Assembly: GCA_032718475.1 (NCBI GenBank)
Contig: JAUCBJ010008304.1
Location: forward strand, 1 to 44,832
Reading direction: 5' to 3'
DNA length: 44,832 nt
DNA from: Nemertoderma westbladi
Lineage: Eukaryota > Animalia > Xenacoelomorpha
The stretch's first letter is position 1, and every line of letters starts with the position of its first letter. Of the stretch, positions 361-38,200 are shown one piece after another. The notes under the pieces are model-generated. The model was not told the DNA's origin and ran no database searches. It saw nothing but the letters and a program-made list of their open reading frames with translations. The position numbers were made by a program, and so were the translations under genes.

Positions 361-3300
361 TTAGTTTGTGCTGAGATTCGACATAATATCAGCTATATGG
401 ACTTGACCTGTGTCTTTCAAACACTGGAGGAATATAAGAAAGTCTTTATAAGGCCTTCTAATAATAGAATTAATTAATTCATTATTCTTTCCAATTTTTG
501 TTTTCTGACAACTAATACGTTGTAAAACACAATCGTTCAGAACACCTCTATCCTCAAGACAAATTATCAGTTGTTCTGGTTCAATATTGGAAATTAGTTT
601 AGATTTATTATCTCTAATGATATCAATAAACTCCCCATCATTATTGGCGATTCCATTTAATTGATCTACCAGATGACTCTGATTGGTTGCTCGTAAAGCT
701 TCAACAAATATGTCAAAGTCATTTTCTGTTCCCCATTTTAGTGCCTCTACCAACGATTTATTGGTACTGTAAATTGTTAATTTTGAATTAATGTTATCCA
801 GAACTTCTACAGATAACGCACGTTTCTCATCAAGGTGTATTAGTACCTCTGTTGGTTCCAGTTTCAGACAAAGCATTTTTTGCTGCGTTTTCAACTTATT
901 TCGGTGAGAATTTGAACATCTGCCCTCTGGTAATTGAACACCATATCCAAGCAGACCGGTTTCAAGAGTCTTAAAACATTCCGATAACTTTAGAAAGTGG
1001 AAACACTCTTCGTCTTTACACTTAATAAATTCGTGTTTAATACATGGGGCATCACACGGACAATTTATTTCAAAATTAAACGTTATATTTCTCATCTTTA
1101 GTTGATGAATAATTTCATTCAATGATAATTGTAAATAGTCTTTTACTCTGAACACAATATCTGGATTTGGTTTATTCGCCGCCACGTTATCAATAACACC
1201 ATGGTGCACTTCTTTAAACCTGTTAATTTGAACTTTAATCCAGTGCAAATTTTTACCTGACCTCTCCAAAACGATTACATGGTCAGAATCTAGAAAAATC
1301 TCGGCAGATCTATGAAACAAGTTTGGTTTTATAAAATCACCGCCTACAATATATGATAAATCTAAAACTTTCTTAATCAGCCGGAAATATACACTATCGG
1401 GTAAAAAACCATCAAATGTAATATAAAATTCAATAAAAGATTGGTTTGCTTTCCAAGGTGTTAATTGGGTTGGCTTTAAGCGACAGGGTACATAATACTC
1501 CAATCGTTTATCATGTTTTGGAATGCCCACACACAATAAATTAAAACGTTCCAGAATATTCAATATAAATTGTTTCTTTTCAAAAACCCCTTCCCAGAGA
1601 TACTCAATAAGTTTTTCGTGTAATATGCCATGCTCATCTAGATCTTTCCAGTACATAGCATGTTCTGGTAGTATATTGTCTTTAACAGTTATTATTCTAA
1701 CAAACAGATCACTCAACCACTCAGGGCTTAATATGACCGTATCTCTCAATGATTCATCATCAAAGTAAATTATTTTTCCTAAATCATGATAAAATTCTAG
1801 AACCGTCTTTAATCCAGAATAATCAAACTCTACTTTAAAATCTTTTAACATCCTCTCCAACTCTTCAACCTCAATGCAAACTTTATTTACTTCTATCAAT
1901 TTAACTATAATTTGTTCAAATTTAAGATATTTCAAAGGAATTTCTTCTTTAAACTTAACCATTTCTTTGACAATTGATGCCTGTAATTTTTCTATTTCAA
2001 AATCGTCCTTATTTTTTATTTCGATATTATTTTCAACGGCATAGTATCCCTTAACAATACTCCTCAAAGGGAGAGATTTTTCTACGGAAATTTGAATTTC
2101 TTTAAGTATATTTGTGGCTATGTCATCTTGTTGTTTTGGATCAACATGCAAGCTACTCTTATGTGTTCCTACAATAAAGACTGGAGGATCAATATTCTCT
2201 GTATCACTTTCAGGTTTATGACAGACAGCAAATATGCTTCGCAACCAAAAATAAATATAATCAACGTTTGTCATCTCTCCGTAAAATGTACTAATGGTGC
2301 TATCGGATTCTCTTACAATAATATCCGCTGTTTCATGCAGATCTTTTGATAGATCAAAAACAATTATATACAGAGCTCGTCTATTCAGGAATATCTGATG
2401 GGTGGTGTAAAAAATACACTGTCCTCCAAAATCTACTGTTTGAAGAGAAAACTCTCTGTCTTCTTCGAGGAATTTTGCCAGAATAACATCTTGAGGTTTC
2501 CCAGATAGTAGTATATCTTCAATCCCCGCAGTAATTTGGTCAGGAATTTCATCATGGGCAGGATGACAAACTATTTTATCACTTTCGCCCTTTTGCATTT
2601 TTATATCTTCAGCATATGTTACATTGTTTACATTTGTGATTGAATTATCTGTTTCTGAATCCCGATTCACGATTCGGTTACTGACATTTCCATCACTGAT
2701 ATTGCTAAGCAATGGTGTTCCGATTATTATATCAGTAGATGATGTTGCTTTTACTGAAACATTATTGATTATTTCATTAATATTTTTCGCTTGAAATAAT
2801 TGTTCTTCTTCTGTAACTTTTTTCTTTTCAAGAACAATTTTTGCTATTTGTTTAGCAAGAATTCTGTTTATGTCTGTTTCTACATTGTCTTCAGTCTGGC
2901 ACCTTGTCCAATCAGCACTTTGGTCTGTGTTTATAATACAGGTTGTGGAAGAGTCAATACCATTTGTAATTGGCTCACTCTTATCAAATGTTTGACCAAT
3001 AAGAGCTTTCTTCAAGCTGGTCTTACCAGCTCTTTCTTGTCCTACAAACATTAATCGAGATTTTAGTCTCAAATTTGTTCCTTTAGAAAGTTCGGTTTTA
3101 TAGGCTGATAATGCTTCTGGACCTCTAGATAATATTTCAACAGGTATACCAACTAATTTATCGTTCATATATTTCAGTAATACTTTTGATACAACTATAT
3201 TTTGCTCATTTTTAGTTAGAAGTCCCTTTTCCATAAACTTTTTGATACAATTTATTTTAATTTCCGATATTCTGTTTTGGTTCTGTGTTGATAATTCCAA

Positions 3301-3554
3301 TAATTCATCAGCACACATACTATAGTATACTTCTTTATCATTTGCATTTAGAGAATCAACAGCTAGTCCAATTAACGATTTTATCTTGCCTTGATATGTT
3401 TGACTGATAGGACCAACCCATCCAATATGAATTGAAATTTCAACCCATTTCTTTGCCTTCCTCAACATTCCTTCAATTTCAGTAATACTTGTCGTTGTTT
3501 CAGTTTGTTTTCTAGAATTGGGGTCAATAACGATTATCGTACCATCTTCACCAC
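361..3554 (-). CDS. ROCO protein, coding exon 2: last WD40 strands, Roc GTPase, COR, two CARD-like domains
   Basis: The acceptor ttttattatggcag| at 3555 joins exon 1 in phase to give RHFIIG-GEDGTIIVID, completing a WD40 repeat. Pre-Roc helix IPVEILSRGPEAL; P-loop GQERAGKT (3019-3042); G2 EPITNG; G3 DFGGQ..FYTTHQIFL (2419-2433); G4 VGTHK; COR (LEFYHDLGKIIYF..VILSPEWL, YYVPCRL, FLPDSVYFRLI). Two C-terminal CARD-like repeats end in FVEALRATNQSHLVDQL and FLQCLKDTGQVHIADIM. Joined CDS is 4062 nt = 1353 aa + stop. Confidence 0.9.
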
Positions 3555-3624
3555 CTGCCATAATAAAATTACAATTAAGTATTATTCAACTGTGCGATTT
3601 ATTTAGCTGTAACTGTGCGAAACA

Positions 3625-3895
3625 AATGCCATGGTGGACAGCCCATGGACTTTCTTGAGACCCTTCTTCATTACATAGTACATATGCTTTGAAGATGCGG
3701 ATTTTCTCAAGAAATTCATGGGTGATAGGGAGTTGTGGCGGCACAATTTTGTTGATAAGCCGACATATCATTCTTAATTCACGCTGCATTGCGCTTGCCA
3801 ATAGCAAAAATATATTTATTCAGACAGCATCTCATCTCAACGTGCAGCTTCACTACAGAGGCCGATTAGTAGTATTAGTATCAGTAGTAGTAGTG
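3625..3895 (+). mobile_element. RTE-clade LINE 3' fragment in the ROCO intron
   Basis: Degenerate GGQPM...MGDRELWRHNFVDKP matches the 3' end of the RTE copy at 6248-6586 in the opposite orientation; ends in a (TAG)n-like tail at ~3867-3894. Confidence 0.75.
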
Positions 3896-4020
3896 CTATA
3901 CATTTATGGTTATTCTATGGTTAGCCTTCTAGCATTGATTGGCTATTCAAAATTATTAATTAATTTTTTTTTTTGTTAATTCACCATAAAAATTATTACA
4001 AACTTGCAATACATACATAC

Positions 4021-4888
4021 CTATAATAAAATGTCTGCTATTCCTATGGAAGTCAAGAGAGAGCACATTCGCAACAAATCCTCCACTTATTCGATTCAAA
4101 ATCTCCCCATCGATAGAGTCGATTAAGTAGATCAAACCAGTCTTTCCAGCAGTTGCTATTCTAGACCCATCAGAACTGAATGCCAGGCGATACGAATCAA
4201 AAACTCCTTTCTGTTCCCATAACAACTCACCATTGTTTACAAGGAAACGATGGAGTTCACCACCTTCATCCAATGAGACGATTGATTTACCATCAGGACT
4301 CCATACAAGGCGCCAAACTGGTCGTGAGTGACCATAATATACGGTAGTCAACTTTCTTGATGGAGTCGTCCATATTTTAATAGTTGTATCCATTGAGGTA
4401 GTGGCCATTCGAGCGCCGGTTAAATCAAACTGAATATCGATTACTATTCCAGAATGCGCCTTCCAGTTTGAAATGGTATAGGTTGAACCGTCTATAACCA
4501 TCAAAGACAAACCCCCAGCCTCGGCGCTGTCGTTATGCCATCCGCATGTCCCTATAATATTTGGGTTCATCGAATGGAACTGAACGCCTCGGCGTGACAC
4601 AACTATTTCATCTCCGATGCGGAATTCCGTTCCGGGTATCGCGAATCTGAGTTCCCACTTACGGGATTCACAGTACCAAACCATCAACGACCCACTGAGA
4701 GTCCCCGCAGCAATCCGTTTACCATCGTGTGATACCGCAACTCTTCGGAAACTCAGCGACGAATCTTCTACTAAACATTCTTCCACAAATAAAGTGTTTG
4801 TATCAGCTATTGCGACACGATTTGGTGAACTGAATACAAATTGATCAGAATTTCGGAAGCATTGCAACCCCCAGATAGCACGGTCCAT
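4021..4888 (-). CDS. ROCO protein, coding exon 1: WD40 beta-propeller
   Basis: WD40 repeats (VAVSHDGKRIAAGTLSGSLMVW; AHSGIVIDIQFDLTGARMATTSMDTTIKIW; GHSRPVWRLVWSPDGKSIVS). ATG at 4888 is preceded by an in-frame TAA and a tttcag acceptor at 4908, implying a 5'UTR intron. Phase-1 donor G|GTATGT at 4021/4020. Confidence 0.88.
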
Positions 4889-6796
4889 TACTAGGGTAGA
4901 ACTTTATCTGAAATATAATAATATACAATGTGTGAAATTGAATGGCGTAAAATAGTCTTAATTACCAACAAATGTTGTAGGTTTAAGAAATTGATTTAAA
5001 TTAAATTAAAAAAGAGGGAAAAGCGCTTGTTAACGTGGTGGTGTTTTCTAACCAAAACAAAATAAAAACTAGATTTCTCGTGTTATTCATTTGGGATGCA
5101 GTTCATTTTTTAACTTCCTACTATGTTTGCTAGGAGTTTCCTACGGAACTACTGGTGATCTGAACAATGATTTGTATTAATTGGAGTTTAATATGGTCTC
5201 CCGTAGGACATATTAGTGACCTAATTATCACCTACAGCATAACCCCTATAGTAAAATTTGGATTTTCTATTTTAATAAAAACCCATCTTCTTATCAAAAT
5301 AATGTTTGGAGATGTAAATGAATTTATTTAATATAAGAATTAAAATTTGAAATTATGAAACTCAAAGTTGTACACAATTAATTATTTTCGATTAATTCTA
5401 GTGTTACTGATTACAGATCCTCCATATCATTTCTTCAACATTCCGATTATAGGCAACATTATTTAGGTAAAGTGCATTAACTACTAGTAAAAAATCAGCT
5501 TTAGTTCGGTATATTACTTGAAAGAAACCGATACGCATATTAACAATTTCGTTAATTTTGGTCTATGGAGGAAGTATTGGGTCGCAGTCTTGTAACTATT
5601 ATTAACTCGTTATTTATTTATTTACTAATAAATGTTATTATAGAAATACTCTTAATTTAGTTTTGTCGATATCTCTTTTACCCCGCGGCGCATGGGGATG
5701 TACCTTGAATTATTATTAATTGTTTGTAATGTTAAGTTTTTTAATATTTATATTTGTTATTTGGCCTTAAACGACTAGAGTATTTTGTAATAATAAACAA
5801 AATTACCTACCATTTATACTTGCCTTTCAAATCAACGCATATTTGACTGAGATTAAAATAATGAGTGTGTTACAGTTATTACAGTTATCAATTAGAATTA
5901 AATTAATATCAATGTTGAAGACAATTTCCCTATGTTACTTACAGACACTGAGAATACCAGTAAATACACTGTATGGTAAATTAAAGTTGGCACTGAGTGA
6001 CACATTGTACTTTGTGCCTTTATATTATTATTCCCAAGTCCTAACTAAAGTCGTTCTGGTTGTGAACCATGGTTATGGATGTTCATTTAAGTAACATAGC
6101 ACTCTAGCAATTATTATATTTGTACCATAATTTATTATGTTGGTTCTAAGTGTTGAACGAATTGCAAGTAGTAATACATCTGGGGCACTTGTGCAGCACA
6201 TGAGGGGGGTACTACTAGGATCGGCATGCTGCATTGCAGCTGCATTTTTAAGAATGTTGTGCCGGCTTGTCAACAAAATTGCACCGCCACAACTCCCTAT
6301 CACCCATGACATTTGCTAGATCATCCGCATCTTCAAGGCCAGTGTCCTTTAAGATGCGTCTCAAGAAAGTCATGGGCTGTCCACCTTGCTTATTCACTCC
6401 ATGAGGCTGCCAAAGTACAAGATTATGCACTGGTTGGTCCTCACGGCGAAAGCAATGTCCTGCAAAGCGGAGGCGATTTTGTTCTAGTGTCAAGCTTGGG
6501 GGAACCAATGAGACACCTCCAATGTTATATAGTGTCTGGTTGGAGATGTGTGCATTGTACTTGACACAATGAACCCGGCGTAGCATTCTTGTGAATGTGC
6601 CATCCAGAGATTTATTATAGGAAGGGATCTAGGGGTCTTAACCTCGAATGATAAGTTTATTTTACCGAAAATAACTTATCTTTTATTGGCGCAATTGTAG
6701 GACTAATCCCATCACATGCGTACTTTTTAACCGGGTAGTGTACAAATTTAGGAATCGCGTATTTTTTCTTGAAATTAATATCTCATATCTCTCCAA

Positions 6797-6839
6797 ACCA
6801 CGTACGCCTTTCGACCTTACTGGGTCTCATCAGCGTGGT
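6797..6839 (-). ncRNA. Minimal type I hammerhead ribozyme
   Basis: Minus strand reads ACCACG CTGATGA GACC-CAGTAA-GGTC GAAA GGCG TA CGTGGT: 6-bp stem I, CUGAUGA core, 4-bp stem II, GAAA, minimal stem III, GUA cleavage triplet. A partial second copy on + (6936-6966) has the palindromic GAAA-CGCG-TA but lacks CTGATG. Confidence 0.85.
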
Positions 6840-6902
6840 GTCGGATTCGAACCTGGGACCTCGAGGTGCAAGCCGAGACTACAACCACTAGGCCACAGGT
6901 TC
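6836..6902 (-). promoter_or_regulatory. tRNA-derived sequence / type-2 Pol III internal promoter
   Basis: A-box TGGCCTAGTGG (6885-6895), anticodon-like arm with TGC, B-box GGTTCGAATCC (6843-6853). Ends in ACCA; the acceptor stem is incomplete, so this is not a functional tRNA. Confidence 0.75.
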
Positions 6903-9479
6903 TTGAGATATGGAGTATTAATTTCAAAGCCAGTAAGACCCAGTAAGGTCGAAACGCGTACGTGGTTTGGAGAGATATGAGATATTAATTTCAAGAAAAA
7001 ATACGCGATTCCTAAATTTGTACACTACTCGGTTAAAAAGTACGCATGTGATGGGATTAGTCCTACAATTGCGCCAATAAAAGATAAGTTATTTTCGGTA
7101 AAATAAACTTATCATTCGAGGTTAAGACCCCTAGATCCCTTCCTATAATAAATGTATAATAACAAACACCTCGAAAAATACAGCTTGCCAACACATTGTT
7201 ACTATCCAGAGATTTGGTGTCCTCAGCAGTTAGAGCCCAGCATGGACTCCCGTAGAGGAGTACTGGAACTACTGCTGCTCTAAATAATCGGACCTTAAGT
7301 TTCCGATTAATTATCGGTGACTTCCAAATCCTGGAAAGCCTATTCAAGGCTGCCCATGCCTTTCCCTTACGTATTCGAAGGTCCTCACCTGACTTCCGGA
7401 TCCATGATTCCAGGTAACAGAAGTCGTCCACATGCTCAAGCATACTATCCTTTGAGCTTATGCTCATGCTCACGCTGACTAAGTCTTACCTTGGCCACAA
7501 GATGGCGGTGATCACTGGAGAAGGGTCGAAGTGTAAATGCATTACAGTCTTGTATAGAGCTCCTGTATTTCCTACGAAACAGAATATGGTCTATCTGGGA
7601 CTTGTGACCACTGGGTCCACTATGAGTCCATAGCTTTCCAGTTCGCTTCTTGAACTGGGTTCCAGCCGAAAACAATCCATTTCCAGAGATAAAATCCTGA
7701 AGATGGACAGAATTTCGGTTAACACTATTGCTATAGACCCAGGGCGATGTAGGAGATTGATGCAGACTTGCATTAAAGTCTCCCAGGAATGTTAAGAATG
7801 CATGCTGATCCACTCCATCAGTAGCTGCTTGTAGATTGTGGTAGAAATTTTCCACCTCCTCTACAGGGGCACCACTAGTTGGAGAGTAGCACACAATCAG
7901 AACCACCTTAGGAAACTTCTTAGCCATTCTTCCAGAACATGAGAAGTGGCAACGGATGATGCGGTTAGAGATTTGGTCTATTTTGTCCAATGCTGCATGT
8001 GCAGTTGGATTCATCAATAGACCAATTCCACCATTGCCACTATCATCTGCTGACACGAGGGCGAGTTGCCAACCGCCCCCCATGTCCTTAATCAGAACCT
8101 CATCAGTCTGTCCAGTCTGCATTCGGTGCTCTTGAACACCCACTGCGCTAGGAGAAAGCTTATCTGCCAAGGCAGTCAGCTCACCTTGTCGCATTGGGGA
8201 CCCGAGTGTTAGGGTGTTTACTGAGGCTAGTCTAGTGACTTGCCTCGGATTCACCAATGGCTTTGCTGGTCGGGGTGGAACATGAGAGTAGCCTCCAACT
8301 CCAGAATCCCTCTCCCCCTCACAATCTGGCCTCCCTGGTGACCCAGGGTTTGGGCCAGAAAGGTCATCAGGAAAGGGACTCAAAGAATTGTTGGCTGCTC
8401 TCTCTCTCCAGTTGGGGTGTGAGACAGGCAGCCGGTCAGGAGTTAACTGACGCCTGTGAGGCCGATTGTGTCCGGTAATTCCACTGGCCTCTAGTGGCTG
8501 GACCTCCGCATTGCTAATGTAATCCATAGTGGGGGTTGGGGGTGCTTTTTTGCCGAGTCAGCTCTCGGGGCAAATACCACACCCTGGTTTGCCATTCCAC
8601 AGGGTGGGTGTCGCAATGGAGTCAGATATGAGGCCCATCACCAACCAACCAACCATCACTAATCATGCAACCAAGTAACATAAAGGGCGGTACATCCTAA
8701 AAGGGCAAACGAGCTGAACTAAGCTGAAACGACCTGAAACGAGTTGAAACAAGCTGTGAAAACGAATAATATTAGATTCTAGGGGAACTTAGATCTCGGG
8801 TGGGAACTAGTGTGGTGCGACCTCAATTGTACAACCTCAATTGTACATACGTTTCACAAACTCAGTTGTATAATCCTTCTCTATCCAATTGAGAGTAAGT
8901 TTTATTGATGTTTGTCAAGATTCGCTGATGCGAAAGCTTTTGGTGTAAATATTTCCCCCCCCCCCCCATCCCTTTGTCCTAATATGGCAGATACTGAGAT
9001 ATTTGATGCGTCTGTTATTAACTCTGTATGTAACATAGGATCGAAGTGAGATAATTACAGTATGTAGCTTTTGACATTTTCTCCTTCTCAGTTAATTAAA
9101 ACATTGCTGTATTTATTCGTTCCATGTACGTAAATGTACTACTATCTTTAATTAATAAAGCATATAATGGTTTAGCCATTTCTGCATAATGAGGTACGTT
9201 AATGAGGTAATTCATGAACCCCATGATACTAGTTGTAGTTTCTTTTTGGATGTTGTTTGGATTCATGTCTAGTACTACCCGAACTTTTTTAGGATCTGGT
9301 AAAAATCCCCCTTTTTTTATAATTTTTCCACAGAATTCGTTGGTTGTTTAGACTAAGTTTAAGTTCTTAATTCTGTACCTGTAAATCGCGTATTTTTTTG
9401 CTGTGGACAGACAATACGTAGGCTGTAGTTCTTAATTTTTTCTAAATCGTATATAAGTTTTTTAAAACCATGTATATTA

Positions 9480-17483: not shown

Positions 17484-18100
17484 TCATTTAATACCAGGTC
17501 TATACAGTACGTCTTCGTACTTAATATTGTCTTTCCGACATAATTTAAAGAATCTCCGCACGAGGGCGCTAAAGAAAGCAACAGGAGCGACTACAATGTT
17601 TGGTGGTTCGAATTGGTATCCAATAATACCAGAAACATTTCGCTCTAAATAGCAGAAAACAGGGAACCAGTAGACGCTAGCTAGTAAGTTATGGATTCCG
17701 GGTTGTTTTAATTCAGAGTTATTAGCTAAAGTATGGTAAGCCCAAAAAAAGTTGGTGGATATATAATAGGCAATTATCACGTCTATAGTGTAATGTTCAT
17801 GCCCCATTAATATAAACGCGACAGCGACTATATAGACCGAGGTAGTTAGGTATCTCAACCACCACAAATTCTTCGGGGAATAATAGCGAATAAACAGCCA
17901 AAAGGTAGTCAAGGATACAGTGTGCCCGGAGTAGATGTAGTCGCCACAGAGATGGTGTTCGTTGGAGACGTTGAGGCCGAATCCAAGCAGGACTTCGAGA
18001 GCGCGTTGGAATTTTCTTCCCCAACCCACATGGGGTCCGCATTCAATGTCCAGGTCTGGCCGCGGTAGATGCGTTACTAGGATACATATAACACGTAGCC
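17484..18100 (-). CDS. Sphingomyelin synthase family protein (SMS2-like), coding exon 2
   Basis: Acceptor cctgtactag| at 18101. SMS motifs D3 CGDYIYSGHT and D4 HEHYTIDVIIAYYIS; stop at 17484. Confidence 0.92.
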
Positions 18101-18972
18101 CTAGTACAGGAATAACAACGGTCACTTCATTCCGACACCAAACTCCTCATTCTTCCCCTTCCAACTTGCGCTTACTAACAAATATAATATGCTATATGCA
18201 TAAAAAATATATTTGAAACATTTTTTCACTCGCTTTGTGTGCTATTAGAATTAGCATTACTCTTATTAGCGTTTAAATATGGTGATTAGACCCCCCCCCC
18301 CCCCCCAAAAAAAAACACAGAAATTATCGGAAAGGAAATAGAACATTACTTTGCAAAAAGTAACAATTTTTAGCATTCTGCCTCTGGTGGGTTTATTACA
18401 CTGGTATCACCGAGTCTTATAGAAAATCGAGGGTCATACCGGTAACCCGGGTAACGGCTATATAGCGATGCTAGCCTACATTATCTAAAGTATGTTTGTA
18501 ATTTTCTCTATTTCTATCGAATTTTACAGTTCTAGTAAAATTGCCAGCTATCTTTTCAATATCAATGGGGGCACTATTCATTCAGTATTAATTCAACAAG
18601 ACCCATAGTTATATTATGTTTTTTTTTGTTGATGGTGCACTGCCTGAATGAGTTGTAGTAAAATTGAATTTGAATTTCCCTCCATTTATATAGAGTTGTA
18701 ATCTTTCCACTTTATAATATTATATAATTACACTACTTTATAAAAAAAGATGCAAAATTTTGACTTTCTGAAGATATGACAATTTGACTAAAACTATGAA
18801 AAATATTTCAATATTGTTGATTTTTATAGATTTTTAGCTCAAAAGTTTAAGGCAATATATTAGATATCTTGGTTTTACAGGATAAAATCAGCAATATTGA
18901 GAAAAATTTTAAAGGGACATAATTTTGAGGAGATTGTGCGAATGCAATGACCGTTAAGGCCAGTAGCTGTAC

Positions 18973-19483
18973 CGTATAGGTTGCCGATTAGAAAGAAAAG
19001 CCTGCGAAATATAATCCATCTGTGTTTCTGTGAGCAAATAATAACAAACATGATTAATCCCAAAGACATTCCTATATGTTCGCTGGCTGGAAAGGCCCAC
19101 GATCGGCGATGCTGTCTGTCTAGAATGACGTCAGACAACGGTTTAGCTTCAACATCAATAAAATCATTAACAACCGAGAGAGCGATAGCAGTTAAAATGA
19201 GATTAAATAACATGAAAAGGAAAGTCATGAATGTTTTCAGTTTCTCTTTCGGATAATTTTCGTTTTTCATAGCAGAGTTTGATTTAATTGTCCTTCCGTT
19301 ACAGTTTGGTATTTGAACCAGTGCGGTTTTAGGCATGTTATCGATAAATCTCGTCAATGAATTGGTTGTTTTCTCGAGGTTTTGAAATATAAATGTTCGT
19401 TTTTCACCCTCAACATGAATAATAGGGATAATTACACAGACGTTAGGATTCACCATATTATTAAAGACATCACCATCGGTCAT
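18973..19483 (-). CDS. Sphingomyelin synthase family protein (SMS2-like), coding exon 1
   Basis: YPKEKLKT, D1 PLSD, D2 RRLFFLIGNLYG|LRVICILVTHLP across a phase-1 intron (donor G|GTACAG at 18973/18972). Joined CDS is 1128 nt = 375 aa. No SAM domain seen; the start codon is uncertain. Confidence 0.9.
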
Positions 19484-20430
19484 TATTTAAATAACTCTGA
19501 ACAACTATTTACATATTTTACATATTTTAGTGTAAAATAGCAGAGAGCTCACGCAGAGAGCTAGTGAAATTAAATATAACGAGGATTACAACAGTGAAAT
19601 AAAGTAGTATTATTCTACTACATTCTATCTATATAGTCACTAAAAGGTAAATAATTTAATTTAACACTTTTGCATAAATAATACTCAAAATAATATATTG
19701 ATTATTTGGTTTCGGATTAGTTGTTCATTGGAATTGAATATTTGAGACCGCTAAATTATCTTTCAATTATAATAATGAATTATGATTTATTATATGTCTT
19801 AGTCTATCGGAATAGCAGACAAACAATTAAGGGGAATTTTTACAAGGGGAATGGAATGGAGTGGACATGGAAAGGAGGTTAATATATTATTAAGACAAAA
19901 ATAATTAAAATAATTACATTCAGGAAGGGTCCTCCTTTATAAACAGAAAAATAAGGACCTGATCTTAGGCAATAATGGTGAGGAAGTTAATATTTTATAC
20001 CAAGAATACGTTCTATACAGTGAAAACTTGCCTGAGCTTTTCAAAACACAATAAAACAAAACAAAATAAAAATTGCGACACAATAATTGGTGTAGGCCCT
20101 ACTTACAAACCTATAATTATCATCGACTGATACAGGTATACAAATATTCAATGTTGATTTAAATCATTTAATTTAATTTAAATTTAATTCTATTTAATTT
20201 AAAAATTACCTATGTTCACCAACGACTTAAACAGCCATTGGTAAATATCATCAATAATTAGCGAATCTTAAAGTAATTTACAAAATAATCATATAGTGGC
20301 GCACACTGACCGCAAGTGCAGTAGAAAGTGACTGGCAGGGCGAGAAGTCTGCTTCATTATCTTTAACTGGCGATCAATGAGTATAGATAGACAAGGGAAA
20401 AGCGAAATGGAAATATGGATTAGGTGGGAT

Positions 20431-24107: not shown

Positions 24108-25752
24108 TACTAGGTCGAGCGAACTCGGACAGTGGAAATGAGATCCTTCCAGGCTTCCCGATTCTCCAACTACTACTAGGTCGAGCGAACTCGGACAGTG
24201 GAAATGAGATCCTTCCAGGCTTCCCGATTCTCCATAGTTGTCGCAATTTCGTTTCTCCCAAGTTCAGTATCCCTTTCAAGTTGATCTATATATGTTATAA
24301 CCGGTCGTCTACTGGTACGCTTTTCATGTGTTGGTTTGCAGAAAAGTAGATCTTGTATGACCTCATGTTTACTTCGCCAGCAGTGCCCTCTGAATCTTAA
24401 TCTGCGTTCACGGAGGGTGGTTGATACTGGTGGTATTGTACCATAAAGCTCGGCGTTTGTCATGTGTTGTCTGCAGCTGATGTATAGGGCTGCCCTTAGT
24501 AGTCTTGTGTAGCAACCATCAATTCGTTGTTCAAGTGATTTAGTCAGTGTCCAGGTCTCACCCCCGTATAAAAATAGACTTTCCACTGTGGCTCGAAAGA
24601 ACATAGTCTTCAGGTGCCTGGAGAGATCTGATTTCCAGATGGTATCCATTTTTGATAGAGCTACCCAAGCCTTTGCTTTCCTAACTTCTATATACTTTTT
24701 GCTACTCTCTATCCATGATCCAAGGTACGGTAGGAATAGTTGGGGGGCCCCCATAACGTGATTACCGGGATATTCAGCCATGACCGGGATAATTTTGATA
24801 AAAATGGTAAGACAGTTGGGATTGCAAATAACTACACACAGTACAAACCGGGATAATTTATTAGTGAAGATTTACATGATAATAGCTTTGATATTACAGT
24901 AGAATAAATTGAATTAAGATTGGACAAATTCAATGTTTTTACTTTGGTAACGCAGTCTTTATTAATCAATCAATGTACTTTACTATACTGTAGGCCATTA
25001 TTTTATTTATTATTGTATGGTCGTTATTTAATTATGTGTTCAAAAATAGGTCAAATAAAAAATATAGGGAATATTGATAGCTATAATGATAATTAATGCA
25101 AACAAGCACAAATCTTATACGATGTCTACAAATCGAAATATGAAATCGCATGAAATTTGAAATTCAAATGTTTTTACGTATTTGGAATCCTTGCACGGCC
25201 AGCTTTCTAACTGTACCAAGAAATCACTAAGATTAAAGAATAACTGCAGTGTAACTTGTCCAATATCGACGGAGTCACCTTTTTAAAACGCTTGTAGCTA
25301 AAGAATGAGCAAAAATAACAATCATGACTCTCTCACCACCCAGCAGGGCGTGAAACTGTTTCTCTTCTATTTAAAATTATATGCAATTTCATTAACATAT
25401 ACTAAATAGGCGTATTATACAGTATATAAGTACAGGAGCGGGACATTTTCACACAACAATACTTGGTTACCGGGATTTTTGAAGAATTTCCTACCCTGAA
25501 ACAAGGTACTGGAAGTCGTCAACCTTCCTTAGTTGATTCGTATCAATTGTTGTCAAGTTTCCATTAATATTACAAGTCATGAATTCGGTCTTGGTAGCAT
25601 TTATATGCAATCCAACCTCCTTAGCAGCCCTCTCCACTTTATTTAGTAGAAGCTGTGCATCTGCTAGCGTATTAGAGAGCAGGGCGATGCCATCCGCAAA
25701 GTCGGTGTCTGTGACTGTAGTTGCCGGATATCTACTACTTCTGCGTTCTTGT
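24108..25752 (-). mobile_element. 5'-truncated RTE-clade LINE, split by a MITE
   Basis: 25499-25752 encodes DTDFADGIALL...VGLHINATKTE...VDDFQYL. It continues at 24725 as YLGSWI...FFRATVESLFLYGGETWTL...RLRFRGHCWRS, ending in a TAG stop plus (TAG)n tail. Confidence 0.88.
24726..25498. mobile_element. hAT-type non-autonomous DNA transposon inserted in the RTE
   Basis: Imperfect 11-bp TIR tacggtaggaa / ttcctaccctg; 8-bp TSD atccaagg / aaacaagg; subterminal accggga repeats. Removing it rejoins the RTE frame (FQYLGSW). Confidence 0.7.
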
Positions 25753-25789
25753 AATGTGAATACTTACAGTATTTTTTTAAATATTCCAA

Positions 25790-26630
25790 AATGACCTTTC
25801 ATTCGGCCACCATATTGCAACGATCGTGAAAAAAGCAAACCGAACTCTTGGATTAATATATCGGACATTCAAGCACCTGGATGGGGATATCTTCATCAGT
25901 CTCTACAAAGCCCTCGTACGACCAACACTGGAGTATGCCTCCACCGTCTGGTCGCCACATCGGATCGGAGAGACACGGCTGATTGAATCAGTCCAACGGC
26001 GAGCTACTCGGTTAGTAGCCAACCTGCGAGACACACCGTACCCTCTTCGCTTGCGGCAACTGGGCCTCCCGACCCTCGAGTATCGTCGCCACCGCGCTGA
26101 CCTCGTCCAGGTCTATCGGTATCTGTCGGGTCTTGAGTCAGTCGACCATCTATTTACTCTCTCCTCCAGCAGTACTCGCCTCGCGGCCATTCCCTAAAAC
26201 TCCAGAAACCACGTGCGAGATTACTCCAACGGAACTCTACCTTCCACTTCCGGGTCATTGACCCATGGAATGCACTGACCGATAATATAGTCACCTCACC
26301 CTCGCTAAACACCTTCAAATCCAGCCTGAACACTCATTATAAACATTTACCCCTGAAATTCACCCCCTCGTGGTGGAACCTCACATAATCCACTTATTAC
26401 CTGCATTAATAATCACCAACTTTTATTCATCACATTAACGTTGTTTTATCTATCATATATTTTAAAATTTTTTAATTACAACACCAACTTTCATTCGTTG
26501 TTTTATCATATGTTTTTAAATTTTCAATTACAGCACCAACTATGTTCTATCATATATTTTTAAATTTTTAATTACAACACCAACTTTCATTCGTTGTTTT
26601 ATCATATATTTTTTATATTTTTAATTAATT
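25790..26630 (+). mobile_element. CR1-group LINE 3' fragment with tandemly repeated 3' region
   Basis: KKANRTLGLIYRTF, LYKALVRPTLEYASTVWSPH, IESVQRRATR; after a frameshift GHSLKL...FRVIDPWNAL...NTFK. ~60-bp tandem repeats at 26410-26630. Confidence 0.85.
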
Positions 26631-29040: not shown

Positions 29041-29347
29041 ACTATATACTAACTATAGTAACTATATACTAACTATAGTAACTATATACTAACTATAGTA
29101 ACTATATACTAACTATAGTAACTATATACTAACTATAGTAACTATATACTAACTATAGTAACTATATACTAACTATAGTAACTATATACTAACTATAGTA
29201 ACTATATACTAACTATAGTAACTATATACTAACTATAGTAACTATATACTAACTATAGTAACTATATACTAACTATAGTAACTATATACTAACTATAGTA
29301 ACTATATACTAACTATAGTAACTATATACTAACTATACTAACTATAT
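29041..29347. repeat. 20-bp minisatellite (ACTATATACTAACTATAGTA), ~15 copies
   Basis: Near-perfect tandem array read directly from the sequence. Confidence 0.97.
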
Positions 29348-29831: not shown

Positions 29832-31730
29832 AGAAGCCAGCATTGACAAAAGCCAACATTGTCGGAAGGCAACAATGTTGGAAGCCAACATTGTCGGAAG
29901 CCAACATTGTCGGAAGGCAACAATGTTGGAAGCCAACATAGTCGGAAGCCAACATTGTTGGAAGCCCACATAGTCGGAAGGCAACAATGTTGGAAGCCAA
30001 CATAGTCGGAAGCCAACATTGTTGGAAGCCCACATAGTCGAGAGCCAACATAGTCGGAAGCCAACATTGTCGAAAGCCAACATAGTCGGAAGCCAACATT
30101 GTTGGAAGCCAACATAGTCGGAAGCCAACATAGTCGGAAGCCAACATTGTTGGAAGCCAACATTGTGCAAGCCAACATAGTCGAAAGCCAACATTGTTGG
30201 AAGCCAACATAGTCGGAAGCGAACATAGTCGAAAGCCAACATTGTTGGAAGCCAACATTGTCGGAAGCCAACATAGTCGGAAGCAAACATAGTCGGAAGC
30301 CAACATTGTTGGAAGCCAACAAAGTCGGAAGCCAACATAGTCGGAAGCCAACATTGTCGGAAGCCAACATTGTTGGATCCATCATTGCCGGAAGCCAAAA
30401 TTGTCGCAAGCCAACATAGTCGGAAGCCAACATTGTTGGAAGCCAACATTGTTGGAAGCCAACATTGTTGGAAGCCAACATTGTCGGAAGCCAACATTGT
30501 CGGAAGCCAACATTATCGCAAGCCAACATAGTCGGAAGCCAACATTGTTGGAAGCCAACATAGTCGGAAGCCAACATAGTCGGAAGCCAACATTGTCGGA
30601 AGCCAACATTGTCGCATGCCAACATAGTCAGAAGCCAACATTGTTGGAAGCCAACATTGTGCAAGCCAACATAGTCGGAAGCCAACATTGTTGGAAGCCA
30701 ACTTTCTCGGAAGCCAACATTGTTGGAAGCCAACATTGTTGGAAGCCAACATTGTTGGAAGCCAACATTGTTGGACGCCAACATAGTCAGAAGCCAACAT
30801 TGTCGGAAGCCAACATTGTTGGAAGCGAACATTGTCGGAAGCCAACATTATCGTAAGCCAACATAGTCGGAAGCCAACATTGTGGAAGCCAACATTGTTG
30901 GAAGCCAACATTGTTGGAAGTCAACATTGTTGGAAGCCAACATTGTTGGAAGCCAACTGTGTTGGAAGCCAACATTGTTGGAAGCCAACATTGTTGGAAG
31001 CCAACATTGTTGGAGGCCAACATTGTCGGAAGCCAACATTGGTGGAAGCCAACATTGTCGGAAGCCAACTGTGTTGGTAGCCAACATTGTTGAAAGCCAA
31101 CATTATCGGAAGCCAACATTGTCGCAAGCCAACGTAGTTGGAAGCCAACATTGTTGGAAGTCAACATTGTCTGAAGCCAACATTGTTGGAAGCCAACATT
31201 GTTGGAAGCCAACTGTGTTGGAAGCCAACATAGTCGGAAGCCAATATTGTTGGAAGGCAACTTTGTTAGAAGCCAACATTGTTAGAAGCCAACTGTGTTG
31301 GGAGCCAACATTGTTGGAAGCCAACATTGTGCAAGCTAACATTGTTGGAAGCCAACATTGTGCAAGCCAACATAGTCGGAAGCCAACATTGTTGGAAGCC
31401 AACTTTGTTAGAAGCCAACATTGTGCAAGCCAACATAGTCGGAAGCCAACATTGTTAGAAGCCAACTGTGTTGGAAGCCAACATTGTTGGAAGCCAAATG
31501 TGTTGGAAGCCAACATTGTTGGAAGCCAACATTGTGCAAGCCAACATTGTCGGAAGCCAACATTGTGCAAGTCATCATAGTCGGAAGCCAACATTGTTGA
31601 TAGTAAGAATGTGTTGGCAAGCTGTAATTCCTTCCTATAATGAGTTGGAAGCTAGTTGGAAGCCAACATTGTTGTAAGCCAACATTGTTGTAAGCCAACA
31701 TTGTTGGAAGCCAACATTGTCGGAAGCCAA
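29832..31730. repeat. Degenerate 15-bp satellite (GAAGCCAACATTGTT/CG), ~125 copies
   Basis: Tandem array with cattgttg, cattgtcg, catagtcg and ctgtgttg variants; it accounts for the many overlapping ORFs here. Confidence 0.95.
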
Positions 31731-32220: not shown

Positions 32221-35200
32221 AGTTAAGTTAATACTAACAATTTTAACTAACTCTAATTTAACACTAACAATTTTAACTAACTCTAATTTAATACTAACAA
32301 TTTTAACTAACTCTAATTTAACACTAACAATTTTAACTAACTCTAATTTAATACTAACAATTTTAACTAACTCTAATTTAATACTAACAATTTTAACTAA
32401 CTCTAATTTAATACTAACAATTTTAACTAACTCTAATTTAATACTAACAATTTTAACTAACTCTAATTTAATACTAACAATTTTAACTAACTCTAATTTA
32501 ATACTAACAATATTAACTAACTCTAATTTAATAATAACAATTTTAACTAACTCTAATTTAATACTAACAATTTTAACTAACTCTAATTTAATACTAACAA
32601 TTTTAACTAACTCTAATTTAATACTAACAATTTTAACTAACTCTAATTTAATACAAACAATTTTAACTAACTCTAATTTAATACTAACAATTTTAACTAA
32701 CTCTAATTTAATACTAACAATTTTAACTAACTCTAATTTAATACTAACAATTTTAACTAACTCTAATTTAATACTAACAATTTTAACTAACTCTAATTTA
32801 ATACTAACAATTTTAACTAACTCTAATTTAATACTAACAATATTAACTAACTCTAATTTAATAATAACAATTTTAACTAACTCTAATTTAATACTAACAA
32901 TTTTAACTAACTCTAATTTAATACTAACAATTTTAACTAACTCTAATTTAATACTAACAATTTTAACTAACTCTAATTTAATACAAACAATTTTAACTAA
33001 CTCTAATTTAATACTAACAATTTTAACTAACTCTAATTTAATACTAACAATTTTAACTAACTCTAATTTAATACTAACAATTTTAACTAACTCTAATTTA
33101 ATACTAACAATTTTAACTAACTCTAATTTAATACTAACAATTTTAACTAACTCTAATTTAATACTAACAATTTTAACTAACTCTAATTTAATACTAACAA
33201 TATTAACTAACTCTAATTTAATAATAACAATTTTAACTAACTCTAATTTAATACTAACAATTTTAACTAACTCTAATTTAATACTAACAATTTTAACTAA
33301 CTCTAATTTAATACTAACAATTTTAACTAACTCTAATTTAATACAAACAATTTTAACTAACTCTAATTTAATACTAACAATTTTAACTAACTCTAATTTA
33401 ATACTAACAATTTTAACTAACTCTAATTTAATACTAACAATTTTAACTAACTCTAATTTAATACAAACAATTTTAACTAACTCTAATTTAATACTAACAA
33501 TTTTAACTAACTCTAATTTAATACTAACGATTTTAACTAACTCTAATTTAATACTAACGATTTTAACTAACTCTAATTTAATACTAACAATTTTAACTAA
33601 CTCTAATTTAATACTAACAATTTTAACTAACTCTAATTTAATACTGACAATTTTAACTAACTCTAATTTAATACTAACAATTTTAACTAACTCTAATTTA
33701 ATACTAACAATTTTAACTAACTCTAATTTAATACTAACAATTTTAACTAACTCTAATTTAATACTAACAATTTTAACTAACTCTAATTTAATACTAACAA
33801 TTTTAACTAACTCTAATTTAATACTAACAATTTTAACTAACTCTAATTTAATACTAACAATTTTAACTAACTCTAATTTAATACTAACAATTTTAACTAA
33901 CTCTAATTTAATACTAACAATTTTAACTAACTCTAATTTAATACTAACAATTTTAACTAACTCTAATTTAATACTAACAATATTAACTAACTCTAATTTA
34001 ATAATAACAATTTTAACTAACTCTAATTTAATACTAACAATTTTAACTAACTCTAATTTAATACTAACAATTTTAACTAACTCTAATTTAATACTAACAA
34101 TTTTAACTAACTCTAATTTAATACAAACAATTTTAACTAACTCTAATTTAATACTAACAATTTTAACTAACTCTAATTTAATACTAACAATTTTAACTAA
34201 CTCTAATTTAATACTAACAATTTTAACTAACTCTAATTTAATACTAACAATTTTAACTAACTCTAATTTAATACTAACAATTTTAACTAACTCTAATTTA
34301 ATACTAACAATTTTAACTAACTCTAATTTAATACTAACAATTTTAACTAACTCTAATTTAATACTAACAATTTTAACTAACTCTAATTTAATACTAACAA
34401 TTTTAACTAACTCTAATTTAACACTAACAATTTTAACTAACTCTAATTTAATACTAACAATTTTAACTAACTCTAATTTAATACTAACAATTTTAACTAA
34501 CTCTAATTTAATACTAACGATTTTAACTAACTCTAATTTAATACTAACGATTTTAACTAACTCTAATTTAATACTAACAATTTTAACTAACTCTAATTTA
34601 ATACTAACAATTTTAACTAACTCTAATTTAATACTGACAATTTTAACTAACTCTAATTTAATACTAACAATTTTAACTAACTCTAATTTAATACTAACAA
34701 TTTTAACTAACTCTAATTTAATACTAACAATTTTAACTAACTCTAATTTAATACTAACAATTTTAACTAACTCTAATTTAATACTAACAATTTTAACTAA
34801 CTCTAATTTAATACTAACAATTTTAACTAACTCTAATTTAATACTAACAATTTTAACTAACTCTAATTTAATACTAACAATTTTAACTAACTCTAATTTA
34901 ATACTAACAATTTTAACTAACTCTAATTTAACACTAACAATTTTAACTAACTCTAATTTAATAATAACAATTTTAACTAACTCTAATTTAATACTAACGA
35001 TTTTAACTAACACTAATTTAATACTAACAATTTTAACTAACTCTAATTTAATACTAACGATTTTAACTAACACTAATTTAATACTAACGATTTTAACTAA
35101 CACTAATTTAATACTAACAATTTTAACTAACACTAATTTAATACTAACAATTTTAACTAACTCTAATTTAATACTAACAATTTTAACTAACTCTAATTTA

Positions 35201-38200
35201 ACACTAACAATTTTAACTAACTCTAATTTAATACTAACAATTTTAACTAACTCTAATTTAATACTAACAATTTTAACTAACTCTAATTTAATACTAACGA
35301 TTTTAACTAACTCTAATTTAATACTAACGATTTTAACTAACTCTAATTTAATACTAACAATTTTAACTAACTCTAATTTAATACTAACAATTTTAACTAA
35401 CTCTAATTTAATACTGACAATTTTAACTAACTCTAATTTAATACTAACAATTTTAACTAACTCTAATTTAATACTAACAATTTTAACTAACTCTAATTTA
35501 ATACTAACAATTTTAACTAACTCTAATTTAATACTAACAATTTTAACTAACTCTAATTTAATACTAACAATTTTAACTAACTCTAATTTAATACTAACAA
35601 TTTTAACTAACTCTAATTTAATACTAACAATTTTAACTAACTCTAATTTAATACTAACAATTTTAACTAACTCTAATTTAATACTAACAATTTTAACTAA
35701 CTCTAATTTAACACTAACAATTTTAACTAACTCTAATTTAATAATAACAATTTTAACTAACTCTAATTTAATACTAACGATTTTAACTAACACTAATTTA
35801 ATACTAACAATTTTAACTAACTCTAATTTAATACTAACGATTTTAACTAACACTAATTTAATACTAACGATTTTAACTAACACTAATTTAATACTAACAA
35901 TTTTAACTAACACTAATTTAATACTAACAATTTTAACTAACTCTAATTTAATACTAACAATTTTAACTAACTCTAATTTAATACTAACAATTTTAACTAA
36001 CTCTAATTTAATACTAACAATTTTAACTAACTCTAATTTAACACTAACAATTTTAACTAACTCTAATTTAATACTAACAATTTTAACTAACTCTAATTTA
36101 ATACTAACAATTTTAACTAACTCTAATTTAATACTAACGATTTTAACTAACACTAATTTAATACTAACAATTTTAACTAACTCTAATTTAATACTAACAA
36201 TTTTAACTAACTCTAATTTAATACTAACAATTTTAACTAACTCTAATTTAATAATAACAATTTTAACTAACTCTAATTTAATACTAACGATTTTAACTAA
36301 CACTAATTTAATACTAACAATTTTAACTAACTCTAATTTAATACTAACGATTTTAACTAACACTAATTTAATACTAACGATTTTAACTAACACTAATTTA
36401 ATACTAACAATTTTAACTAACACTAATTTAATACTAACAATTTTAACTAACTCTAATTTAATACTAACGATTTTAACTAACACTAATTTAATACTAACAA
36501 TTTTAACTAACTCTAATTTAATACTAACAATTTTAACTAACTCTAATTTAACACTAACAATTTTAACTAACACTAATTTAATACTAACGATTTTAACTAA
36601 CACTAATTTAATACTAACAATTTTAACTAACACTAATTTAATACTAACAATTTTAACTAACTCTAATTTAATACTAACGATTTTAACTAACACTAATTTA
36701 ATACTAACGATTTTAACTAACACTAATTTAATACTAACAATTTTAACTAACTCTAATTTAATACTAACAATTTTAACTAACTCTAATTTAATACTAACAA
36801 TTTTAACTAACTCTAATTTAATACTAACAATTTTAACTAACTCTAATTTAATAGTAACAATTTTAACTAACTCTATTTAATACTAACAATTTTAACTAAC
36901 TCTAATTTAACACTAACAATTTTAACTAACTCTAATTTAATACTAACGATTTTAACTAACACTAATTTAATACTAACGATTTTAACTAACTCTAATTTAA
37001 TACTAACAATTTTAACTAACTCTAATTTAATACTAACAATTTTAACTAACTCTAATTTAACACTAACAATTTTAACTAACTCTAATTTAATACTAACAAT
37101 TTTAACTAACTCTAATTTAATACTAACAATTTTAACTAACTCTAATTTAATACTAACGATTTTAACTAACACTAATTTAATACTAACAATTTTAACTAAC
37201 TCTAATTTAATACTAACAATTTTAACTAACTCTAATTTAATACTAACAATTTTAACTAACTCTAATTTAATACTAACAATTTTAACTAACTCTAATTTAA
37301 TACTAACGATTTTAACTAACACTAATTTAATACTAACGATTTTAACTAACACTAATTTAATACTAACAATTTTAACTAACACTAATTTAATACTAACAAT
37401 TTTAACTAACTCTAATTTAATACTAACAATTTTAACTAACTCTAATTTAATACTAACAATTTTAACTAACACTAATTTAATACTAACAATTTTAACTAAC
37501 TCTAATTTAACACTAACAATTTTAACTAACTCTAATTTAATACTAACGATTTTAACTAACTCTAATTTAACACTAACAATTTTAACTAACACTAATTTAA
37601 TACTAACAATTTTAACTAACTCTAATTTAATACTAACGATTTTAACTAACTCTAATTTAACACTAACAATTTTAACTAACTCTAATTTAATACTAACGAT
37701 TTTAACTAACTCTAATTTAACACTAACAATTTTAACTAACTCTAATTTAATACTAACAATTTTAACTAACTCTAATTTAATACTAACAATTTTAACTAAC
37801 TCTAATTTAACACTAACAATTTTAACTAACTCTAATTTAATACTAACAATTTTAACTAACTCTAATTTAATACTAACAATTTTAACTAACTCTAATTTAA
37901 TACTAACAATTTTAACTAACTCTAATTTAATACTAACAATTTTAACTAACTCTAATTTAATACTAACAATTTTAACTAACTCTAATTTAATACTAACAAT
38001 TTTAACTAACTCTAATTTAACACTAACAATTTTAACTAACTCTAATTTAATACTAACAATTTTAACTAACTCTAATTTAACACTAACAATTTTAACTAAC
38101 TCTAATTTAATACTAACAATTTTAACTAACTCTAATTTAATACTAACAATTTTAACTAACTCTAATTTAATACTAACAATTTTAACTAACTCTAATTTAA

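What the first reader, a model, noticed from the sequence alone, without database searches (positions are those of the whole stretch)
361..4888. WD40-Roc-COR-CARD-CARD protein: a candidate GTPase-based counterpart of Apaf-1/NLR sensors
Seen: the two separate ORFs splice (intron 3555-4020, GT-AG, phase 1) into one 1353-aa protein, and the junction completes a WD40 repeat. Roc motifs G1-G4 are intact, followed by COR and two CARD-like folds; there is no LRR or kinase. Known: LRRK1/2 carry LRR-Roc-COR-kinase-WD40, DAPK1 has a C-terminal death domain, and Apaf-1 is CARD-NB-ARC-WD40. Invertebrates have expanded, shuffled ROCO families, some with death folds. Inference: this has the sensor-switch-effector logic of an apoptosome or NLR in reverse order, with a dimerising Roc-COR GTPase replacing the STAND ATPase. 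It could be an uncharacterised innate-immune or cell-death receptor that recruits CARD caspases or adaptors. I do not recall this exact architecture being described.
Basis: partly seen in the sequence, partly recalled or inferred. Interest (0 to 1): 0.85.

Follow-up and report, generated by a model that had tools for sequence, protein, structure and literature searches.

The report
WD40-sensor Roco switch with twin CARDs
This animal gene, likely spliced from two exons, joins a WD40 propeller, an LRRK2-type nucleotide switch and two caspase-recruitment domains, so it likely works as an inside-the-cell danger sensor that would recruit a cell-death protease; this exact combination was not found in print, but its parts and its design are already known from other Roco proteins.

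Summary
Observation confirmed except one point. Joining 4888-4021 to 3554-361 (466-nt GT-AG intron, phase 1) gives an uninterrupted 1353-aa protein; this join best completes a WD40 repeat among 17 frame-keeping joins. WD40, Roc, COR and two CARDs pass Pfam cut-offs; models match LRRK/Roco and caspase-9/Apaf-1-type CARDs. Splicing is inferred, not read from RNA. Correction: G4 is not intact. It lacks the guanine-selecting Asp, a trait of its whole clade (Asp in 25 of 99, versus 114 of 121 outside), so GTP specificity is open. The core belongs to an invertebrate Roco clade (nearest: Neuralized-Roc-COR-Death-TIR proteins, at most 40% identical) whose relatives swap N-terminal repeats and C-terminal effectors, including caspases. 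No second WD40-Roc-COR-CARD protein was found, but a mussel gene model has propeller-Roc-COR-CARD-CARD on a separate branch. Roco-plus-CARD (Trichoplax), bacterial propeller-Roc-TIR and the NLR analogy are published. This scan earlier noted Roco-CARD and WD40-Roco proteins on other DNA. Verdict: new variant of a known kind; function untested.

The parts
4021..4888 (-). Coding exon 1: start codon and most of a WD40 beta-propeller (aa 1-289); 44% GC
3555..4020 (-). Predicted 466-nt phase-1 GT-AG intron interrupting the last WD40 repeat
   Evidence: best of 17 frame-keeping joins; inferred, not read from RNA
361..3554 (-). Coding exon 2: end of propeller, linker, Roc, COR, two CARDs, stop codon; 32.5% GC
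3514..3554 (-). Second half of the last WD40 repeat (about aa 290-303)
3154..3513 (-). Unassigned helical linker (about aa 304-423); low-confidence helices, no family match
1951..3147 (-). Roc domain with leading helix (about aa 426-824): G1 at 461-468, G2 Thr486, G3 Asp664, G4 with Ser756 in place of Asp, G5 Glu797
2475..2925 (-). Insert of about 150 aa splitting Roc between G2 and G3 (two helices, then a low-confidence stretch); relatives have inserts at the same place
967..1938 (-). COR domain (COR-A by Pfam aa 829-972; the rest by homology and model), ending in a Cys/His-rich stretch conserved in relatives
655..903 (-). CARD 1 (six-helix death fold; best rows NLRC4 CARD Z 13.1 and entry 6k9f Z 13.0)
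379..621 (-). CARD 2 (best rows caspase-9 CARD Z 16.5, rmsd 1.5, 93 aligned; Apaf-1 CARD Z 16.3)

Best explanation
The gene, likely spliced from two exons, encodes a kinase-less Roco protein with a WD40 propeller, a Roc-COR module and two CARDs, and it likely acts as a cytoplasmic sensor whose propeller would bind a trigger, whose Roc-COR would change oligomeric state, and whose clustered CARDs would recruit and activate a CARD-bearing initiator caspase. Shown here: the open frame, the domains, the CARD folds, and membership of the core in an invertebrate Roco clade with interchangeable ends. Inferred: splicing; the sensor role of the propeller (by position, as for the LRR, TPR, ankyrin, NHL and Neuralized domains of relatives); a nucleotide-driven monomer-dimer cycle (from Chlorobium Roco, which is a monomer with GTP and a dimer without nucleotide, so the clustered state would be the GDP or empty one, unlike ATP-bound STAND wheels); and caspase recruitment (relatives fuse a caspase domain in the same slot). 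A dimer would present four CARDs, which may make up for the lower valency than a seven-spoked apoptosome. Which nucleotide the Roc domain uses is open, because the guanine-selecting Asp is absent.
For: Domains pass Pfam cut-offs. Roc-COR model mostly pLDDT about 90; the Foldseek rows listed at E<=0.001 are all LRRK1, LRRK2 or prokaryotic Roco entries. CARD pair model pLDDT 85.8; the first 36 of 50 VIA rows are CARD-bearing entries or one designed protein, and Death domains start at Z 9.2. Among 134 new representatives scanned: Death in at least 33, HEPN 10, TIR 8, DED 5, caspase 4 (3 C-terminal to COR: Owenia, Lingula, Exaiptasia), CARD 2. A Sinanodonta gene model (P0368) has an NHL-like N-terminus, Roc-COR and two CARDs on a different branch (AU test rejects grouping with the query, p 9.8e-46), so the design likely arose at least twice. 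Published parallels: PMC8195603 section 15, PMC4104024 section 5, PMC6337361 passages on the monomer-dimer cycle.
Against: In what I read, no member of this invertebrate clade has a tested function; the immune reading rests on domain context. CARD sub-type cannot name the partner: tandem CARDs also match RIG-I/MDA5 (Foldseek ranks 1-10; Z 15.1), and sequence hits to CED-3 and caspase-9 CARDs are weak (E 0.024 and above 0.5). G4 Asp and the G3 Trp are replaced and the end branch is long (1.28), so the switch may be altered. No paralogue lies in the window, so there is no sign here of the expansion typical of immune receptors. The nearest relatives look like a conserved orthologous group (Neuralized-Roc-COR-Death-TIR), not an expanded one.
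Confidence: 0.45

Rival explanations
1. Same sensor-switch design, but the tandem CARDs nucleate a CARD adaptor filament and drive transcriptional signalling (RIG-I/MAVS or NOD2/RIPK2 style) rather than a caspase.
For: Tandem CARDs are the RIG-I/MDA5 arrangement and these top the Foldseek list; CARD 1 aligns best to filament-forming NLRC4 and ASC-type CARDs; the nearest relatives end in Death-TIR, a MyD88-like pair (PMC9334734 passages).
Against: The RLR matches have rmsd near 9 and reflect having two CARDs; CARD 2 fits caspase-9/Apaf-1 CARDs much more tightly (rmsd 1.5); CARD 2 scores below the cut-off of the second CARD model, CARD_2 (16.9 versus 28.2 bits).
Confidence: 0.2
2. A scaffold or inhibitor: the protein uses WD40 and Roc-COR for localisation, as LRRK proteins do on membranes, and the CARDs hold or block death-pathway components without sensing a pathogen or danger signal.
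For: Characterised Roco proteins act in trafficking, cytoskeleton and development (PMC4104024 section 5); the WD40 exon matches only generic WD40 proteins; altered G3/G4 residues would fit a weakened switch.
Against: The same C-terminal slot holds caspase, TIR, HEPN, trypsin and GT4 effectors in relatives, the effector set described for conflict systems; G1, G2 and G3 core residues are kept.
Confidence: 0.2
3. The gene model is wrong: a WD40 gene and a Roc-COR-CARD gene lie side by side, or the protein has further upstream exons.
For: An in-frame ATG lies just upstream of the acceptor; the exons differ in base content (44% versus 32.5% GC; third-position GC 0.40 versus 0.25); none of 249 Roc relatives has WD40 directly before a Roc of this clade.
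Against: Each piece alone carries half of one WD40 repeat and only this join completes it; consensus splice sites in the right phase.
Confidence: 0.07

Closest known systems
Invertebrate Neuralized-Roc-COR-Death-TIR proteins (e.g. Saccoglossus 'neuralized PATS1', P0007) and echinoderm Roc-COR-Death expansions
   Same: Closest Roc-COR core (up to 40% over 543 columns; one clade at 99/92 support), split Roc, degenerate G4 with G5 Glu, death-fold after COR.
   Different: Neuralized replaced by WD40, Death-TIR replaced by CARD-CARD; long branch; not inside the Neuralized orthologue group.
Sinanodonta woodiana KAL3889163.1 (P0368), an unannotated gene model
   Same: Propeller-like N-terminus, Roc-COR, two tandem CARDs.
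   Different: N-terminus is NHL-like (by similarity to P0319, E 1e-27; no Pfam hit of its own), not WD40; core only about 24% identical; separate branch; keeps the G4 Asp.
AP-GTPase (Roc)-COR counter-invader proteins, Kaur et al. 2021, PMC8195603 (passages, section 15, hits in supplement files 4 and 6)
   Same: Repeat sensor + Roc-COR + variable effector, explicitly compared with NACHT/AP-ATPase receptors; lists bacterial BetaPropeller+AP-GTPase+TIR and animal APGTPase+COR+Death+Death and APGTPase+COR+DED+TRADD-N+caspase.
   Different: No COR+CARD entry in 12 of 13 supplement files searched (file 4 is held cut); the propeller forms I saw are bacterial.
Trichoplax ROCO repertoire, Civiero et al. 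2014, PMC4104024 (passages, part 1 of 2 of section 5, figure legend)
   Same: Animal Roc-COR proteins with CARD and death domains.
   Different: The legend lists no WD40 and the search listing counts 0 occurrences of WD40; the figure itself was not seen.
Apaf-1 / CED-4 / Dark and NLRs (STAND ATPases)
   Same: WD40 + nucleotide switch + CARD in one chain; CARD 2 superposes on Apaf-1 and caspase-9 CARDs.
   Different: No NB-ARC or NACHT domain; reverse order; one propeller rather than two and two CARDs rather than one (Apaf-1 layout recalled); dimer-type rather than wheel-type switch (inferred).
LRRK1/LRRK2 and DAPK1
   Same: Roc-COR fold; DAPK1 also ends in a death-fold.
   Different: No kinase, LRR or ankyrin repeats; WD40 is N-terminal.

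Membership tests
ROCO family | Roc domain directly followed by COR | tested here: met
   Pfam Roc and COR-A above cut-off; model matches LRRK1/2 and Chlorobium Roco
ROCO family | G1-G3 motifs (P-loop Lys/Thr, switch I Thr, DxxG) | tested here: met
   the Trp before G3 is replaced by Val
ROCO family | G4 Asp that selects guanine | tested here: not met
   Ser756; Asp in 25 of 99 clade members and 114 of 121 other relatives. Roco G4-G5 are known to vary, so this questions GTP specificity rather than family membership
ROCO family | GTP binding and hydrolysis; nucleotide-linked dimer cycle | not testable with these tools
   needs purified protein
CARD domain (death-fold) | Six-helix bundle closer to CARDs than to DD, DED or PYD, in both repeats | tested here: met
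WD40 propeller | WD40 repeats forming a closed seven-bladed propeller | tested here: inconclusive
   WD40 family met; 5 repeats by profile, 7 by eye; the propeller was not folded
Apaf-1 / NLR (STAND) | NB-ARC or NACHT ATPase domain | tested here: not met
   no such family at E<=0.1; so it may work like, but is not, an Apaf-1 or NLR
LRRK / DAPK1 | Protein kinase domain | tested here: not met
MFHAS1-type Roco | N-terminal LRRs before Roc-COR | tested here: not met
   LRR-Roco rows lie outside the clade
Neuralized-Roc-COR-Death-TIR orthologue group | Neuralized, Death and TIR domains; placement inside the group | tested here: not met
   same wider clade only
Expanded immune-receptor family | Many paralogues with diversifying sensor surface | not testable with these tools
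   no genome held; none in the window

The most novel reading that the evidence does not exclude
Animals have repeatedly built a second, Roco-based apoptosome/inflammasome class (propeller-Roc-COR-CARD-CARD, here and independently in freshwater mussels), and the large invertebrate Roco clade holding this gene has lost strict guanine selection (G4 Asp lost, G5 Asp to Glu), so its switch may run on ATP or on any purine nucleotide: a GTPase fold converging on STAND ATPase receptors in both layout and fuel.
Probability: 0.12. Interest if true: 0.85.

Novelty: new variant of a known kind. Interest (0 to 1): 0.48.

Why it matters
Kinase-less animal Roco proteins have long been proposed as immune receptors from domain content alone. 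A version ending in CARDs gives a direct read-out (caspase recruitment) with which to test whether a Roc-COR dimer cycle can do the job of an apoptosome or NLR wheel, and to study the LRRK2-type switch without a kinase. The clade-wide loss of the guanine-selecting residue is a separate, cheap-to-test question about Roco enzymology; in SpoIVA a similar loss accompanied a shift from GTP to ATP (PMC7952092 passages).

Tried and rejected
RNA evidence: no RNA holder listed, so no reads were laid. Own genome: none held. COR homodimer prediction (residues 528-866 of the exon-2 frame, 2 copies): no answer, score 0.00, no evidence either way. WD40 exon against longer proteins: the best 120 of 650 hits were generic prokaryotic and fungal WD40 proteins and their Pfam lists were cut, so fusions to Roc could not be read there. 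CARD pair against longer proteins: 0 of 755 candidates at E<=1. Metagenome scan with the protein: nothing; with the alignment: 80 of 408 loci kept, none with WD40 or CARD by my profiles; these profiles are weak (the WD40 one found 1 of 2 known WD40 carriers; the CARD one found only its own inputs). Linker: no Atlas hit, one Pfam hit below cut-off, no match among 249 relatives. G4/G5 co-variation is strong in raw counts but not significant in 16 independent pairs (median 4 same way, 0 opposite, p 0.125), so I do not claim compensation. Rfam on 1-32000: 0 matches. CARDs in the whole-exon model were low-confidence and were refolded alone. Paper searches; the literal architecture strings gave 3 unrelated clinical papers. 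PMC6321704 passages: no mention of Roc or COR. PMC11378527 reports about forty animal ROCO domain combinations in a figure I could not see; its one held supplement had no CARD, WD40 or Death. Rejected: LRRK fragment (no kinase or LRR), Apaf-1 orthologue (no NB-ARC), bacterial contamination or recent transfer of the core (intron; core nests among animal proteins).
Full report
The observation. Two long minus-strand frames lie at 3956-4903 and 361-3585. Joining 4888-4021 to 3554-361 removes a 466-nt intron with a GT donor and an AG acceptor in phase 1 and gives 1353 codons with a single terminal stop. A stop-free run of 1074 codons is far beyond chance (longest 136 in 300 shuffles). To test the join I built a WD40-repeat profile from 400 of 792 repeats cut from unrelated proteins and scored all 17 frame-keeping donor/acceptor pairs near the intron ends: the proposed pair scored 8.2 bits and the next 1.0; the junction peptide scored 10.4 joined and -0.1 read through. 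The profile finds 5 repeats; I count seven blades by eye, the last completed by the join. Splicing remains inferred. A strong acceptor at 4908 is followed by an in-frame stop, suggesting an untranslated upstream exon, but a weaker AG at 4891 leaves an upstream coding exon possible.

Domains. Pfam gives WD40, Roc, COR-A and CARD above cut-off and no LRR, kinase, NB-ARC or NACHT; each C-terminal repeat passes the CARD cut-off alone. An AlphaFold2 model of exon 2 (72-row alignment) has Roc-COR at pLDDT near 90, and the Foldseek rows listed at E<=0.001 are LRRK1, LRRK2 or prokaryotic Roco structures. The CARD pair folded alone reaches pLDDT 85.8 as two six-helix bundles. CARD 2 fits caspase-9 (Z 16.5, rmsd 1.5, 93 aligned) and Apaf-1 (Z 16.3) CARDs, CARD 1 fits NLRC4-type CARDs (Z 13.1), and Death domains start at Z 9.2; Foldseek ranks the tandem CARDs of MDA5 and RIG-I first, at rmsd about 9. 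The two CARDs resemble each other (score 97, best of 500 shuffles 47). About 120 residues between propeller and Roc are helical and unassigned, and Roc is split by an insert of about 150 residues, as in relatives.

A correction. G1, G2 and the G3 core are conserved, but G4 has Ser where G proteins have the Asp that most determines guanine specificity (PMC7952092 passages). This is a clade trait, not decay of this copy: Asp occurs in 25 of 99 members of the query's clade (as drawn by FastTree) and in 114 of 121 other relatives, while G5 has Glu in 73 of 100 versus 3 of 122. The two changes go together in raw counts but not significantly in 16 independent pairs. The query alone also lacks the Trp before G3 (198 of 222 relatives keep it). 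A review notes that Roco G4-G5 vary (PMC6337361 passages). So it is a Roco protein whose nucleotide preference is untested.

Relatives. The 115 hits are led by Neuralized-Roc-COR-Death-TIR proteins of echinoderms, hemichordates, amphioxus, molluscs and annelids (30-34% identity; domain order, 28 proteins scanned); none lists CARD, and WD40 appears only in two LRR-kinase Rocos. The representative search found 5811 proteins at E<=0.001 and listed 150; the 134 new ones carry Neuralized, ankyrin, fn3, SH2, NHL, LRR, NACHT, Bcl-2, Ras, KIX or macro domains in front, and Death (at least 33), HEPN (10), TIR (8), DED (5), caspase (4), trypsin (2) or CARD (2) elsewhere, mostly behind COR; none showed WD40, though only the best 5 families were shown for 110 of them. 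The caspase fusions behind COR come from Owenia, Lingula and Exaiptasia; the CARD proteins from Amphiura (P0259) and Sinanodonta (P0368). P0368 has two CARDs and an N-terminus similar to the NHL-bearing N-terminus of P0319 (E 1e-27). In an IQ-TREE tree of 40 of the 230 aligned cores, the query is a long branch in a 21-row clade (99/92) with the Neuralized group and echinoderm expansions, away from P0368; holding the query with the four mussel propeller-Rocos is rejected (p-AU 9.8e-46; that group was chosen after seeing a first tree). The propeller-Roc-COR-CARD-CARD design therefore likely arose at least twice. The Atlas gave leads under 0.9 only: a mostly sponge Roc-COR cluster with CARD on 26% of 85 members and a bacterial WD40-Roc cluster of 94. 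The WD40 exon is richer in GC than the rest (44% versus 32.5%), which would fit later capture of the sensor, but this is only suggestive.

How it likely works. By position the propeller is the swappable input and the CARD pair the swappable output. Chlorobium Roco is monomeric with GTP and dimeric through COR when nucleotide-free. Applied here, trigger binding would favour the dimer, display four CARDs and recruit an initiator caspase; relatives that fuse the caspase directly behind COR show the same logic in one chain. I put this at 0.45, signalling through a CARD adaptor at 0.2, a non-sensing scaffold or inhibitor at 0.2 and a wrong gene model at 0.07. An earlier, unchecked note reports a caspase-Apaf-1 fusion elsewhere in this genome, which hints at reshuffled death machinery; I did not test it.

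What is known. Kaur et al. (PMC8195603; passages, section 15, supplement hits) describe repeat + AP-GTPase + COR + variable effector proteins as counterparts of NACHT/AP-ATPase receptors and list bacterial BetaPropeller+AP-GTPase+TIR and animal APGTPase+COR+Death+Death or +caspase, but no COR+CARD. Civiero et al. (PMC4104024; passages and part of section 5) report Trichoplax Rocos with CARD and death domains. PMC11378527 (passages) proposes algal Rocos as immune receptors and counts about forty animal architectures in a figure I could not see. PMC9334734 (passages) notes Aplysia Roco proteins with TIR and Death. Eight searches found no description of WD40-Roc-COR-CARD-CARD; subscription journals are largely outside that library. 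This scan earlier noted Roco-CARD animals and WD40-Roco proteins of bacteria and a protist on other DNA.

Verdict. A real, intact gene model with a domain order I could not find described, built from a published design in a family known for shuffling its ends: a new variant of a known kind. It works, if the inference holds, like an Apaf-1 or NLR but is not one. The least expected point is the clade-wide loss of the G4 Asp. Interest 0.48.

Noticed in passing
window 17484-19486 (-), with unlocated middle exon(s): Pieces of a likely sphingomyelin-synthase-like gene: PAP2_C 86 bits in the 17484-18146 frame; the 18875-19486 frame looks like its N-terminal exon (by eye; no Pfam hit). The family name is recalled from the PAP2_C context.
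   Followed up: partly
window 6248-8557 (-), 24176-24871 (-), 25781-26197 (+): Fragments that look like non-LTR retrotransposon frames: an endonuclease (Exo_endo_phos) at 7445-8557 and reverse-transcriptase-tail-like pieces (by eye).
   Followed up: no
window 32224-44832: A 30-bp AT-rich satellite, 420 copies, 98% matched, running off the window end; it gives stop-free frames of over 2500 codons that are not genes.
   Followed up: no
window 29850-31730 and 29041-29347: A 16-bp tandem array (118 copies) and a 20-bp array (15 copies).
   Followed up: no
proteins P0255 (Owenia), P0272 (Lingula), P0286 (Exaiptasia), P0349 (Potamilus): Roc-COR proteins fused to caspase domains; P0255 also carries an N-terminal Bcl-2 domain.
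   Followed up: partly
proteins P0001-P0049 and relatives: The conserved Neuralized-Roc-COR-Death-TIR group and its clade mostly have Asn, Glu, Ala or Gly in place of the G4 Asp, with Glu in G5; I did not see this noted in the papers read.
   Followed up: partly
proteins P0265, P0304, P0364: NACHT and Roc-COR switches in one chain; P0265 is from Montipora.
   Followed up: no
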